Source: an archaeon | GTDB taxonomy: Archaea; Nanobdellota; Nanobdellia; Pacearchaeales; GW2011-AR1 | Direction of reading: 5' to 3' | NCBI GenBank assembly: GCA_043797265.1 | Contig: JAZDPV010000012.1 | Coordinates: forward strand, 13,875 to 77,874 | Length of the DNA stretch: 64,000 nt | Shown here: positions 6,909 to 6,943 of the stretch, piece after piece | Layout of the letters: the number at the start of each line of letters is the position of its first letter | Position numbering within the stretch: position 1 is the first letter of the stretch | Notes under the pieces: generated by a model | The model's input: the letters and a program-made list of their open reading frames with translations, nothing else | The model's database searches: none | What the model was told of the DNA's origin: nothing | Made by a program: the position numbers and the translations under genes

Positions 6909-6943
6909 CTACCCCCTACCTCCTACCATCTACCCCCTAACAT
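6909..6943. repeat. CTA-type heptad array (5 units)
   Basis: The units are ctacccc ctacctc ctaccat ctacccc ctaacat. The array abuts the ppsA TATA box. Confidence 0.9.

What the first reader, a model, noticed from the sequence alone, without database searches (positions are those of the whole stretch)
6909..6943. Co-oriented CTNNNNN heptad arrays whose stop triplets predict where they are tolerated
Tandem 7-nt arrays of 4-6 units are all written CTxxxxx on the + strand. The CTA type occurs at 6909-6943, 10178-10205, 13630-13656, 46794-46828, 53948-53982, 54108-54149 and 54819-54853. The CTGA type occurs at 11476-11510, 11524-11558, 43840-43874, 47395-47429, 52309-52336, 52795-52822 and 60604-60631. 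A related array (cgaacaa/cgaacag) lies in gltX at 18407-18441. Because 7 is not a multiple of 3, CTA arrays put TAG into all three frames of the - strand, and CTGA arrays put TGA into all three frames of the + strand. In line with this, CTA arrays lie inside ORFs only in + strand genes (dph5 and the 53936 ORF). CTGA arrays lie inside ORFs only in - strand genes (kae1, proS twice, argS). The real TAG stops of three - strand genes (10199, 13637, 46808) are the CTA of such an array, with further TAGs 7 nt apart. These arrays are either slippage products filtered by selection, or selected all-frame stop arrays in a genome where one strand is nearly stop-free.
Basis: partly seen in the sequence, partly recalled or inferred. 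Interest (0 to 1): 0.7.

Follow-up and report, generated by a model that had tools for sequence, protein, structure and literature searches.

The report
Seven-base tandem repeats in a DPANN archaeon
The window holds a real excess of short seven-base tandem repeats, a repeat type already known to be common and unexplained in prokaryotes, and their stop-codon pattern follows from mutation bias plus ordinary selection against in-frame stops, not from a dedicated stop-signal function.

Summary
The arrays are real at every coordinate given. Period 7 is specifically enriched: 16 arrays of at least 3 copies, against 1.45 expected.

The window comes from a DPANN archaeon (Woese-/Pacearchaeota-like) whose + strand has only 12.6% G.

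Five close relatives carry the same kind of arrays, often at the same gene sites: two ProS loops, Kae1, GatB and the L7Ae/S28e junction. More distant relatives with equal GC skew have none.

On the G-rich (window -) strand, most units read RNNN-YAG. CAG is the form found inside sense ORFs. TAG appears wherever it is not in frame.

Four TAG-type arrays lie inside ORFs. In each, only the single in-frame TAG has been replaced. CTA and CTGA arrays are therefore one family, split by C-to-T pressure and purifying selection.

The stop-triplet rule is largely a logical necessity. It has an exception in gyrA. The "nearly stop-free strand" premise is wrong. Co-orientation is a bias, not a rule.

I found no support for selected stop arrays.

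The closest known cases are heptanucleotide repeat families in bacteria, for example TAACTGA, where the same all-frame-stop logic was published in 2015.

Two things remain unexplained: the preference for 7 bases and the conserved YAG anchor.

The parts
2..21 (.). CCAACTG x2.9 at the window edge (reverse complement CAGTTGG, CAG-type on the G-rich strand). It lies 60 nt upstream of ORF 82..669.
6909..6943 (.). CTA-type array of 5 units (reverse complement NNNNTAG). It is intergenic and ends directly at the TTATATATTA box, 27 nt upstream of the ppsA ATG at 6971.
10178..10205 (.). CTA-type array of 4 units. The first TAG read on the - strand (10199-10201) is the stop of the nucleotidyltransferase-domain ORF 10199..11032.
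11476..11558 (.). Two CTGA-type arrays (reverse complement GTTTCAG/AATTCAG) that form a 48-nt tandem duplication. They are intergenic, 13 nt downstream of the TGA stop of ORF 11571..13541 and 42 nt upstream of the four-helix-bundle gene 11072..11434.
13630..13656 (.). CTA-type array (reverse complement GAGGTAG/GGGTAG). It supplies the TAG stop (13637) and the last residues of ORF 13637..14215.
16712..16744 (+). CGACCAA/CGACCAG array, CAR-anchored on the C-rich + strand. It lies in the small ORF 16580..16918. The relative L085 has (CGACCAG)x4.4 upstream of its gltX, in the same relative position.
18407..18441 (+). (CGAACAA CGAACAG)x2 in gltX, CAR-anchored on the sense + strand. It encodes TEQRTANNEQR. 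The orthologue in L085 is a perfect (CGAACAG)x4.4. More distant GltX proteins lack the 3-residue excess.
41218..41246 (-). TAG-type array inside gyrA (- strand reads AAAATAG AAAATAG AAAGTTG AAAATAG). Only the in-frame unit has lost its TAG.
   Evidence: frame arithmetic on ORF 40892..43462 (note 4)
43840..43874 (.). (CTGACGC)x4 plus CTGATTT (reverse complement AAATCAG then GCGTCAG x4). It is intergenic, 18 nt downstream of the gyrB stop. Of the six arrays folded, it is the only one that forms a stable RNA hairpin (-17.4 kcal/mol, z -6.7).
46794..46828 (.). CTA-type array straddling the TAG stop of the L7Ae-like ORF (46808) and ending 8 nt before the S28e-like start (46785). L015 has (AAAATAG AGAATAG)x3 at the same junction. 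L003 and L016 have no array there.
47395..47429 (-). (AAATCAG GCGTCAG)x2 on the sense strand of kae1, in the C-terminal tail (aa 326-337). It shares both units with the gyrB-3' array 3.5 kb away.
52309..52336 (-). ProS site 2: sense GTGTCAG AATTCAG AATTCAG GATTCAG, encoding a loop that outgroups lack. L015, L001, L081 and L084 have arrays at the same site.
52795..52822 (-). ProS site 1: sense (AATTCAG GTGTCAG)x2. The same site holds (AAGACAG)n in L015, (GTCGCAG)n in L001, TCGGCAG/TAAGCAG in L004 and GGTAATA/GGCAACA in L084.
53948..53982 (.). (CTATTAT)x4 in the repeat-rich divergent spacer between proS and dph5. It falls in a nominal 82-aa ORF (53936..54184) with no detected homologue.
54108..54149 (.). 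CTA-type array of 6 units in the same spacer/ORF, 60 nt upstream of the dph5 ATG.
54819..54853 (+). CTA-type array of 5 units inside dph5 (TAG on the antisense strand). It encodes TTTYPLPSTPYC, which aligns with the conserved ...Y.fg.P.HCLIIP segment of solved diphthine synthases with only one extra residue. It therefore replaces ancestral sequence and is not a net insertion.
60604..60631 (-). argS: sense GGTTTCG x2 plus GGTTTCA x2, that is GTTTCAG units of which two have drifted to GTTTCGG. It encodes the RGFGFRVSGFS linker and shows no net insertion against yeast ArgRS.

Best explanation
These are heptanucleotide simple-sequence repeats. They form a lineage-specific family in a small clade of strongly strand-skewed DPANN archaea, and they have no dedicated stop function.

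Shown:
- The arrays sit at tolerant places: intergenic spacers, gene ends, surface loops, linkers and tails of housekeeping proteins.
- They persist at the same sites across species.
- Their units are replaced over time, and units are shared between nearby arrays of one genome.
- On the G-rich strand the unit is RNNN-YAG.
- In sense ORFs it stays CAG. Wherever TAG is harmless (non-coding, out of frame, or antisense to a + gene) it is often TAG.
- On the C-rich strand, CAG drifts to CAA.

Inferred:
- The arrays arise and are homogenised by replication slippage and by template switching or mispairing between arrays.
- The C-to-T pressure that produces the extreme skew converts CAG to TAG.
- Purifying selection removes any array that puts a stop in frame. 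Inside ORFs it also allows only frame-preserving lengths.

The preference for 7 nt and for the YAG anchor is not explained.
For: Period-7 excess:
- It is specific to period 7 in the window.
- It recurs in five relatives with GC skew 0.33-0.44: L015 has 9 arrays in 21 kb, L081 10 in 18 kb, L084 5 in 10.5 kb, L001 4 in 10.7 kb and L004 3 in 16 kb.
- L003 has skew 0.40 and no arrays.

Shared anchor:
- Among 45 arrays found by TRF, CAG is in 18 units (2.1 expected) and TAG in 14 (4.5 expected).

Orthologous sites:
- ProS sites 1 and 2 and the L7Ae/S28e junction keep the YAG phase while the other four bases differ between lineages. Outgroups have shorter loops and no array.

Replaced in-frame stops:
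- gyrA 41218: in-frame TTG.
- L084 ProS site 2: GGTAGAT GGTAGAG GGCAGAA GGTAGGT.
- L084 ProS site 1: the third unit is GGCAACA.
- L015 kae1: TAAGGGG.

Drift in the direction of the skew:
- gltX is (CGAACAG)x4.4 in L085 and CGAACAA/CGAACAG in the window.
- In argS, CAG has drifted to CGG.

Exchange or duplication between arrays:
- In L001, the ProS site 1 and kae1 arrays are identical over 31 of 32 nt.
- The window's ProS sites 1 and 2 share two units, and kae1 and the gyrB-3' array share two units.
- There is a 48-nt duplication at 11476-11558.
- L001 and L081 have a duplicated LxYSVKGMD segment flanked by arrays in kae1.

Location:
- 8 of 18 arrays lie in, or overlap, the 10.1% of the window that is non-coding.

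Precedent:
- Heptamers are the most abundant tandem repeats in prokaryotes (PMC6344855; PMC4692102).
- 120 metagenomic loci picked by (TCAGNNN)x4 hold 320 period-7 TRF rows, against 16 for period 6 and 26 for period 8.
Against: - Simple stepwise slippage predicts more 3-unit than 4-unit arrays. The observed YAG run lengths are 6, 17, 9, 2 and 1 for n = 3 to 7.
- Inside essential genes, single-unit steps shift the frame. A 1-to-4 jump therefore needs a multi-unit event or copying from another array.
- The anchor is more conserved than the other four positions. The stop filter protects only its C.
- No length difference was seen in 5 arrays between two near-identical assemblies (13 kb, 1 SNP, no gaps). 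This gives no direct evidence of instability, although the divergence is too small to be decisive.
- Many arrays compared are orthologous, so the counts overstate the number of independent events.
- The direction of mutation was inferred from base composition. It was not measured on a polarised tree.
Confidence: 0.6

Rival explanations
1. An active, anchored generator. A strand-specific replication or repair step recognises the YAG/CTR anchor. Candidates are priming or restart on the lagging-strand template, archaeal family-B polymerase stalling ahead of a deaminated C, or flap mis-processing. This step writes about three units at once, or copies units from a nearby array. The arrays would then be footprints of that enzyme and not generic slippage.
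For: - Run lengths peak at 4-5 units with few at 3, in non-coding arrays as well.
- The anchor is kept while the four other bases are swapped between lineages.
- Units are shared between arrays 0.05-6.5 kb apart in one genome.
- YAG lies on the G-rich strand in about 29 arrays, against about 6-8 CAR arrays on the C-rich strand.
- L003 has equal skew and no arrays, so something lineage-specific is needed.
Against: - No enzyme or motif was identified.
- The anchor does drift (CGG, CAA, TAG).
- The peak at 4 in coding arrays also follows from frame preservation.
- Bacterial heptamer families have many different units, so no universal anchor exists.
- All loci compared come from one syntenic region on one skew sign, so strand specificity relative to replication was not tested.
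Confidence: 0.2
2. Cis-acting binding sites. The heptad arrays are recognised by a DNA- or RNA-binding protein and tune transcription, translation or mRNA stability, as proposed for TAACTGA repeats. Many G-rich-strand units resemble parts of a Shine-Dalgarno sequence (GGAGGT, AGGTGA).
For: - The anchor is conserved at orthologous sites.
- The L7Ae/S28e array ends 6-8 nt before the S28e start in both the window and L015.
- The 6909 array abuts a TATA-like box.
- AGG and GGT are enriched in units: 20 against 6.4 expected, and 26 against 7.2.
- The gyrB-3' array folds into a stable hairpin.
Against: - Positions and orientations relative to genes are inconsistent: promoter-proximal, 3' ends, mid-ORF sense, mid-ORF antisense.
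- The L015 junction array (AAAATAG/AGAATAG) has no Shine-Dalgarno-like content.
- Five of the six arrays folded show no structure beyond shuffles.
- Relatives lacking the arrays have the same operon layout.
Confidence: 0.12
3. Selected all-frame stop arrays. The arrays are kept because they put a stop into every frame, ending read-through or frameshifted translation at gene ends or blocking antisense translation.
For: - Three - strand ORFs end in an array TAG, with further TAGs 7 nt apart.
- Two CAG-type arrays lie 13-18 nt after - strand stops.
- The same idea is compatible with TAACTGA repeats overlapping stop codons in Beggiatoaceae.
Against: - The - strand already has stops at 4.5-5.6% of triplets per frame. 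A back-up stop comes within about 20 codons anyway.
- About half of the arrays are inside ORFs and are translated.
- CTA arrays in dph5, and CTGA arrays in - genes, place stops only on the non-coding strand.
- CAG-type arrays just downstream of stops carry no stop on the gene's strand.
- L003 and L016 end L7Ae without an array.
- Only 3 of 38 - strand ORFs have such a stop.
Confidence: 0.04

Closest known systems
Over-representation of heptanucleotide tandem repeats in prokaryotic genomes (Mrazek et al. 2007, as cited in PMC4692102; Mori et al. 2019, PMC6344855)
   Same: Short head-to-tail arrays of 7-nt units are specifically enriched over neighbouring periods. They occur mostly in non-coding DNA and have no known function. 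A polymerase-footprint slippage origin has been suggested.
   Different: The reported cases are mainly bacterial and intergenic. Here the host is a DPANN archaeon with extreme strand skew. About half of the arrays are in frame inside housekeeping genes (proS, argS, gltX, kae1, gyrA, dph5), and the units share a YAG anchor.
TAACTGA direct repeats of Beggiatoaceae, cyanobacteria and Bacteroidetes (MacGregor 2015, PMC4679880)
   Same: - It is a genome-specific heptamer family of 2-6 copies.
- The forward orientation has stops in all three frames, so arrays can only overlap ORF ends.
- The reverse orientation is translated inside ORFs, mostly at protein termini.
- Arrays lie close to start codons in ribosomal-protein operons.
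- The unit contains CTGA.
   Different: - The unit there is one fixed sequence. Here only 3 of 7 positions are shared.
- Most TAACTGA sets lie just upstream of starts in one orientation. Here positions and orientations are mixed.
- No strand-skew-linked CAG/TAG dimorphism was described.
GGGAATC (Xanthomonas) and GGGGAYT (Nostoc) G-quadruplex-forming heptamer repeats (Rehm et al. 2015, PMC4692102)
   Same: They are G-rich heptamer arrays, intergenic, kept between the same genes in related species, with length and sequence variation between those species.
   Different: Those units carry G3-4 runs and fold into G-quadruplexes. Most units here have no G3 run, and many arrays are coding.
STRR heptanucleotide repeats of heterocystous cyanobacteria (Calothrix PCC 7601; cited in PMC4692102; unit sequences CCCCAGT, TTGGTCA and CAACAGT recalled from memory)
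   Same: Several different tandem heptamers coexist in one genome. Some units resemble those here: TTGGTCA against TTGGTCG, and CAG-containing units.
   Different: They are cyanobacterial and intergenic, with many more copies per genome. The resemblance of units was not tested and may be chance.
Contingency loci (phase-variable simple-sequence repeats in bacterial pathogens)
   Same: Both are non-triplet repeats within or next to coding sequence, where a one-unit change shifts the reading frame.
   Different: The host genes here are essential housekeeping genes that are kept in frame. No copy-number variation was seen between near-identical assemblies. Switching would be lethal, not adaptive.

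Membership tests
Heptanucleotide simple-sequence repeats (long SSRs) | Head-to-tail copies of a 7-nt unit, at least 3 copies | tested here: met
   TRF finds 16 arrays with period 7 and at least 3 copies. The units are listed.
Heptanucleotide simple-sequence repeats (long SSRs) | Excess over chance that is specific to period 7 | tested here: met
   16 observed against a mean of 1.45 (maximum 5) in shuffles. Periods 5, 6, 8 and 9 are not enriched. Phased 3-mer runs of at least 4: 47 at period 7, against 1-8 at other periods.
Heptanucleotide simple-sequence repeats (long SSRs) | Unit number or sequence varies between related genomes at the same locus | tested here: met
   ProS sites 1 and 2, the L7Ae/S28e junction, gltX and kae1 differ in units between the window, L015, L001, L004, L081, L084 and L085.
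Heptanucleotide simple-sequence repeats (long SSRs) | Length polymorphism within a population (slippage instability) | tested here: inconclusive
   L081 against L082 and L083 shows 1 SNP, no gaps and 5 arrays unchanged. The divergence is too small, and assemblies are consensus sequences. No reads were available.
TAACTGA direct-repeat family | Unit sequence TAACTGA | tested here: not met
   No window array has this unit. The units are CTGAAAC, CTGAATT, CTGACGC, CTGACAC, CTACCNC and others. Only the CTGA core is shared.
TAACTGA direct-repeat family | Mostly intergenic, within a few nt upstream of start codons, forward relative to the downstream gene | tested here: not met
   Only the L7Ae/S28e array fits (8 nt before the start). 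The others are mid-ORF, at 3' ends, or in the opposite orientation.
TAACTGA direct-repeat family | Stops in all three frames in one orientation, translated in the other | tested here: met
   CTA and CTGA units behave this way. The translated peptides are SGVRIQVSE, SEFRIQDSG and others.
G-quadruplex heptamer repeats (GGGNATC type) | A run of at least 3 G in every unit | tested here: not met
   Only some TAG-type units (GGGGTAG) have such runs. CAG-type units (GTGTCAG, AATTCAG, AAATCAG) do not.
Phase-variable contingency loci | Repeat in a dispensable, surface-exposed or regulatory gene, with on/off frameshift variants | tested here: not met
   The hosts are proS, argS, gltX, kae1, gyrA and dph5. 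All are intact ORFs in every relative.
Alternative genetic code with TAG read as a sense codon | In-frame TAG tolerated inside conserved genes | tested here: not met
   In four TAG-type arrays inside ORFs, the in-frame unit alone is changed to CAG, CAA, TTG or AAG.

The most novel reading that the evidence does not exclude
The arrays are footprints of a strand-specific, sequence-anchored replication or repair event peculiar to this clade. An example would be restart or stalling at a deamination-prone C in a YAG context on the strand that stays single-stranded longest. Such an event would add about three 7-nt units in one step, or copy them from a neighbouring array. If so, these in-frame arrays would give the first mechanistic handle on why prokaryotic tandem repeats favour a period of seven. 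They would also link that preference to the unusual replication mode implied by the extreme skew.
Probability: 0.15. Interest if true: 0.75.

Novelty: new member of a known kind. Interest (0 to 1): 0.38.

Why it matters
Heptamer tandem repeats are the commonest tandem repeats in prokaryotes, and their cause is unknown (PMC6344855). This clade offers an unusually clean natural experiment.

- Arrays sit in frame in essential genes, so only frame-preserving changes survive.
- The same sites can be compared across several species.
- A very strong strand-specific mutation bias marks the direction of decay: CAG to TAG, CGG or CAA.

This makes birth, turnover and decay of the arrays readable from sequence. 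It also shows that the arrays are a source of lineage-specific loops in housekeeping proteins. An example is the 26-residue Kae1 insertion at a site where relatives still carry arrays.

The finding does not reveal a new functional element. The stop-array idea, which made it look exciting, is not supported.

Tried and rejected
1. TAG recoded as a sense codon. Rejected: in-frame TAGs are replaced in four arrays.
2. Compositional artefact of the G-poor strand. Rejected: CTGA and TCAG are equally frequent, shuffles do not reproduce the period-7 excess, and L003 has the same skew with no arrays.
3. RNA structure or terminator. Five of six arrays fold no better than shuffles. Only (GCGUCAG)n downstream of gyrB forms a hairpin.
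4. No Rfam family other than two tRNAs matches the window.
5. Shine-Dalgarno arrays. The idea is attractive for TAGGAGG/AGGTGA units, but the L015 junction array lacks any such content and most arrays are not upstream of starts.
6. Link to a diversity-generating retroelement through the Avd-like four-helix-bundle gene at 11072..11434. Only a weak sub-threshold Avd match was found (E 8.7e-6, 26 bits against a cut-off of 80). No reverse transcriptase or template/variable repeat pair was seen.
7. Strain-level copy-number polymorphism. Three assemblies carrying the same ProS are identical across the arrays.
8. Fetching the rest of the source contig. The window's own proteins are not in the contig index, so no skew switch could be examined.
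9. Metagenome scan for (TCAGNNN)x4, to test orientation against skew in the clade. It showed only that TCAG-anchored and other heptamer arrays are widespread, with a weak tendency for TCAG to lie on the locally G-richer strand (84 against 62).
10. Resemblances recalled from memory and not tested: primase initiation triplets (CTG, CTA), RelE-preferred codons (UAG, CAG, UCG), KOPS, REP GTAG, and splice-site-like YAG|GT. I treat these as coincidences.
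Full report
**The observation**

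Two are imperfect: 13630-13656 contains a 6-nt unit, and 60604-60631 is CTGAAAC x2 followed by CCGAAAC x2.

The excess is real and specific to period 7.
- Tandem Repeats Finder reports 16 arrays of period 7 with at least 3 copies.
- Forty shuffles that keep dinucleotide content within 500-nt blocks give a mean of 1.45 and a maximum of 5.
- Periods 5, 6, 8 and 9 are at chance level.
- Runs of at least four copies of one trinucleotide spaced by 7 nt number 47. Spacings of 5, 6, 8, 9 and 10 give 1-8.
- CTA and CTG each form six such runs on the + strand and none in the reverse orientation.

For the CTGA type this orientation is not a k-mer effect: the + strand has 135 CTGA and 150 TCAG.

**The host**

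The genes are archaeal. They include Kae1, class-I ProRS, ArgRS, GluRS, diphthine synthase, GyrA/B and PEP synthase. The closest ProS and GltX proteins come from MAGs labelled archaeon, Woesearchaeota, Pacearchaeota or Nanoarchaeota.

The + strand is A 34.6%, C 29.9%, T 22.9% and G 12.6%. GC skew is -0.18 to -0.61 in every 4-kb window, whatever the gene strand.

- The + strand has about 700 stops per frame (3.3%).
- The - strand has 964-1199 stops per frame.
- TAG and TGA are rarer on the + strand, but TAA occurs 1446 times there.

**Relatives**

A scan of one genome per species found 80 ProS loci. Four further contigs came from exact-protein look-ups.

Period-7 arrays are abundant only in the closest group. 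ProS identity to the window is 73-83% for L004, L084, L081, L001 and L015. L085 was found through its GltX, which is 88% identical.

| Locus | Period-7 arrays | Length |
|---|---|---|
| L015 | 9 | 21 kb |
| L081 | 10 | 18 kb |
| L084 | 5 | 10.5 kb |
| L001 | 4 | 10.7 kb |
| L004 | 3 | 16 kb |
| L085 | 3 | 4 kb |

All have GC skew of 0.33-0.44 in magnitude. L003 has skew 0.40 and a ProS identity similar to L004, but no arrays. Skew alone therefore does not create arrays.

Gene order on one side of proS is conserved, so orthologous sites can be compared.

**One family, not two**

I wrote the arrays on the G-rich strand, which is the window's - strand. Among 45 arrays found by TRF in six genomes:
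- CAG occurs in 18 consensus units, against 2.1 expected from random 7-mers of the same genomes.
- TAG occurs in 14, against 4.5 expected.
- AGG occurs in 20 (6.4 expected) and GGT in 26 (7.2 expected).

Aligned on the anchor, the unit reads R-N-G/R-D-Y-A-G.

Orthologous arrays keep the anchor and its phase while the other four bases differ.

| Site | Window | L015 | L001 | L004 | L081 |
|---|---|---|---|---|---|
| ProS site 1 | (AATTCAG GTGTCAG)x2 | (AAGACAG)x4 | (GTCGCAG)x4 | TCGGCAG TAAGCAG TCGGCAG TAAACAG | no array |
| ProS site 2 | GTGTCAG AATTCAG AATTCAG GATTCAG | (AGGACAG)x3 | GTGTCAG GTGTCAG ATTTCAG | no array | GTGTCAG (GTGCCAG)x3 |
| L7Ae stop / S28e start | AAGATAG AAGGTAG TAAGTAG GAGGTAG GGGGTAG | (AAAATAG AGAATAG)x3 | not covered | not covered | not covered |

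At the L7Ae/S28e junction, L003 has only ...CTT AAG TAG and no array. More distant ProS proteins have shorter loops at both ProS sites.

The anchor is not immutable.
- The argS array is half GTTTCAG and half GTTTCGG.
- Two L084 arrays are GTGTCGG and GATTCGG.
- On the C-rich strand, the gltX array is a perfect (CGAACAG)x4.4 in L085 and CGAACAA/CGAACAG in the window.

These changes (C to T and A to G on the G-rich strand, G to A on the C-rich strand) run in the direction that the base composition implies.

**The stop-triplet rule**

Three or more phased units that carry a stop triplet cannot lie within an ORF on that strand.

The informative cases are TAG-type arrays that do lie inside G-rich-strand ORFs. 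In each, exactly the unit whose TAG would be in frame is altered.
- gyrA 41218-41246: AAAATAG AAAATAG AAAGTTG AAAATAG. I checked the frame against ORF 40892..43462.
- L084 ProS site 2: GGTAGAT GGTAGAG GGCAGAA GGTAGGT.
- L084 ProS site 1: GGTAATA GGTAATA GGCAACA.
- L015 kae1: TTAGGCG TTAGGGG TAAGGGG TTAGGCG.

This shows two things. TAG is a true stop in this organism. And CAG and TAG units interconvert, with selection acting only on the in-frame copy.

Across arrays of at least 4 anchors, 16 CAG-dominant arrays are in sense ORFs and 3 are not. Nine TAG-dominant arrays are non-coding or antisense, and one is in a sense ORF with its in-frame TAG replaced.

**Where the arrays sit**

A simple gene model gives 67 ORFs and 10.1% non-coding DNA. 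Eight of 18 arrays are intergenic or overlap a gene end. The count rises to ten if the unconserved 82-aa ORF at 53936 is not a gene.

Inside proteins the arrays occupy loops, linkers and tails.
- The two ProS loops are absent from outgroups.
- The GltX segment has a 3-residue excess, shared only by the two closest relatives.
- The ArgRS linker and the Dph5 segment have essentially no net length change against solved structures.
- One array lies in the Kae1 C-terminal tail.
- Kae1 also has a 26-residue insertion at the place where L001 and L081 still carry two arrays and a duplicated LxYSVKGMD segment.

Only 3 of 38 - strand ORFs end this way. The L7Ae comparison shows that the same AAG-TAG stop exists without an array in L003.

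**Dynamics**

Nearby arrays in one genome share units, while orthologous arrays in other genomes differ.
- In L001, ProS site 1 and a kae1 array 6.5 kb away are identical over 31 of 32 nt.
- The window's ProS sites 1 and 2 share GTGTCAG and AATTCAG.
- The window's kae1 and gyrB-3' arrays share AAATCAG and GCGTCAG.
- 11476-11558 is a 48-nt duplication of an array plus its spacer.

Runs of YAG at period 7 on the G-rich strand number 49, 6, 17, 9, 2 and 1 for n = 2 to 7. The n = 2 value matches other periods. Coding arrays are almost all n = 4.

Inside ORFs, only changes of three units keep the frame. That explains part of the peak, but non-coding arrays also have 4-7 units.

Two near-identical assemblies (13 kb, one SNP) show no length change in five arrays.

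Only one of six arrays folded, (GCGUCAG)n after gyrB, forms a significant RNA hairpin.

**Interpretation**

The best-supported reading is a lineage-specific family of heptanucleotide simple-sequence repeats. The arrays are born and homogenised by slippage and by mispairing or template switching between arrays. They are then sorted by purifying selection (no in-frame stop, frame-preserving lengths, tolerant protein sites) and by the strand-biased mutation that also produces the skew.

It does not explain the preference for 7 nt, the YAG anchor or the scarcity of 3-unit arrays. An anchored, strand-specific generator therefore remains a live rival.

A regulatory binding-site role is possible for individual arrays (the L7Ae/S28e junction and the ppsA promoter). 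It does not fit the mixed positions and orientations overall.

The selected stop-array idea is not supported.

**Comparison with known systems**

Heptamer tandem repeats are documented as the most abundant tandem repeats in prokaryotes, with no known function (PMC6344855; PMC4692102).

MacGregor (PMC4679880) described TAACTGA repeats. She noted that the forward orientation gives stops in all three frames, so arrays can only overlap ORF ends. The reverse orientation is translated, mainly at protein termini.

Almost all were unskewed bacteria with GC 0.5-0.68. These loci hold 320 period-7 TRF rows, against 16 for period 6 and 26 for period 8.

The window is therefore a new, archaeal member of a known and still unexplained kind. 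My literature searches found no report of heptamer repeats in archaea. They also found no paper holding both "GC skew" and "Pacearchaeota". A comparable strand disparity has been described for CPR Microgenomates (PMC7143001).

**Limits**

- All related loci come from syntenic regions with one sign of skew. Orientation relative to replication could not be separated from orientation relative to this region.
- Orthologous arrays are not independent observations.
- The direction of mutation is inferred from composition.
- No read-level data were available.

Noticed in passing
window 1-64000; also L015, L001, L003, L004, L081, L084, L085: Extreme strand disparity. G is 12.6% and C 29.9% on the + strand. 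GC skew is -0.18 to -0.61 in every 4-kb window regardless of gene strand, with no switch in 64 kb. Relatives show 0.33-0.44 in magnitude. The composition resembles the vertebrate mitochondrial L-strand (from memory) and the whole-genome disparity reported for CPR Microgenomates (PMC7143001). It hints at unidirectional or strongly asynchronous replication in this DPANN clade.
   Followed up: partly
window 46394-46450 and 56594-56644: Tandem 16-nt repeats (ACTTCCAGCGAAGCGG and ACTACCAGCGAAGCGG, 3 copies each) occur at two unlinked loci. One lies just past the end of the S28e-like ORF. The other overlaps the 3' end of ORF 55967..56647. Each unit contains GCGAAGC, known from memory as a very stable DNA mini-hairpin motif.
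   Followed up: partly
window 22768-22794, 40859-40887, 62316-62345, 62760-62789 (also 43448-43471, 43575-43596): A second class of short tandem repeats has a period of 10-11 nt and related units: TCCGTGTTAG, TCCTGCGTTAG, TTCATTCGTG and GTCCGTGTTT. Unusually for this strand, the units are G-containing. Some are intergenic (just past the gyrA stop) and some lie inside ORF 62131..63966.
   Followed up: partly
window 3724-3793: ARAGORN calls a tRNA-Val with anticodon AAC. By eye, the anticodon loop reads CCAACAT. An A at position 34 would be unusual for an archaeon (from memory). It might be a G-to-A change driven by the skew, or a mis-called anticodon.
   Followed up: no
window, all ORFs: Stop-codon usage depends on strand. 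The 29 + strand ORFs use TAA (22) and TAG (7) and never TGA. The 38 - strand ORFs use TAA 17, TGA 12 and TAG 9.
   Followed up: partly
window 36001-40000: A low-GC block (GC 0.319, against 0.38-0.47 in the other 4-kb windows) has near-zero AT skew. It covers the 3' part of ORF 34165..36960 (931 aa) and most of ORF 37142..40066 (974 aa), both on the - strand. The 22 kb from 19 to 41 kb contain no heptad array.
   Followed up: no
window 47780-47860 (kae1 aa 185-210); L001 10164-10278; L081 17736-17842: Kae1 of this clade carries an insertion after residue 184. In L001 and L081 it consists of two heptad arrays flanking a duplicated LxYSVKGMD segment. In the window it is a 26-residue non-repetitive insert. 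This looks like a decayed array that has become an ordinary protein loop.
   Followed up: partly
window 11072-11434: A four-helix-bundle protein (TIGR02436, the 23S rRNA intervening-sequence protein family) has a weak sub-threshold similarity to DGR Avd. Its gene lies directly downstream of the duplicated arrays at 11476-11558. No reverse transcriptase was seen nearby.
   Followed up: partly
L086-L205 (metagenome loci): In many high-GC bacterial contigs, TCAG-anchored heptad arrays occur as inverted pairs a few tens of nt apart (for example L092, L118, L145, L150). Many end in TCAGTAA, a unit that puts stops in all six frames.
   Followed up: no
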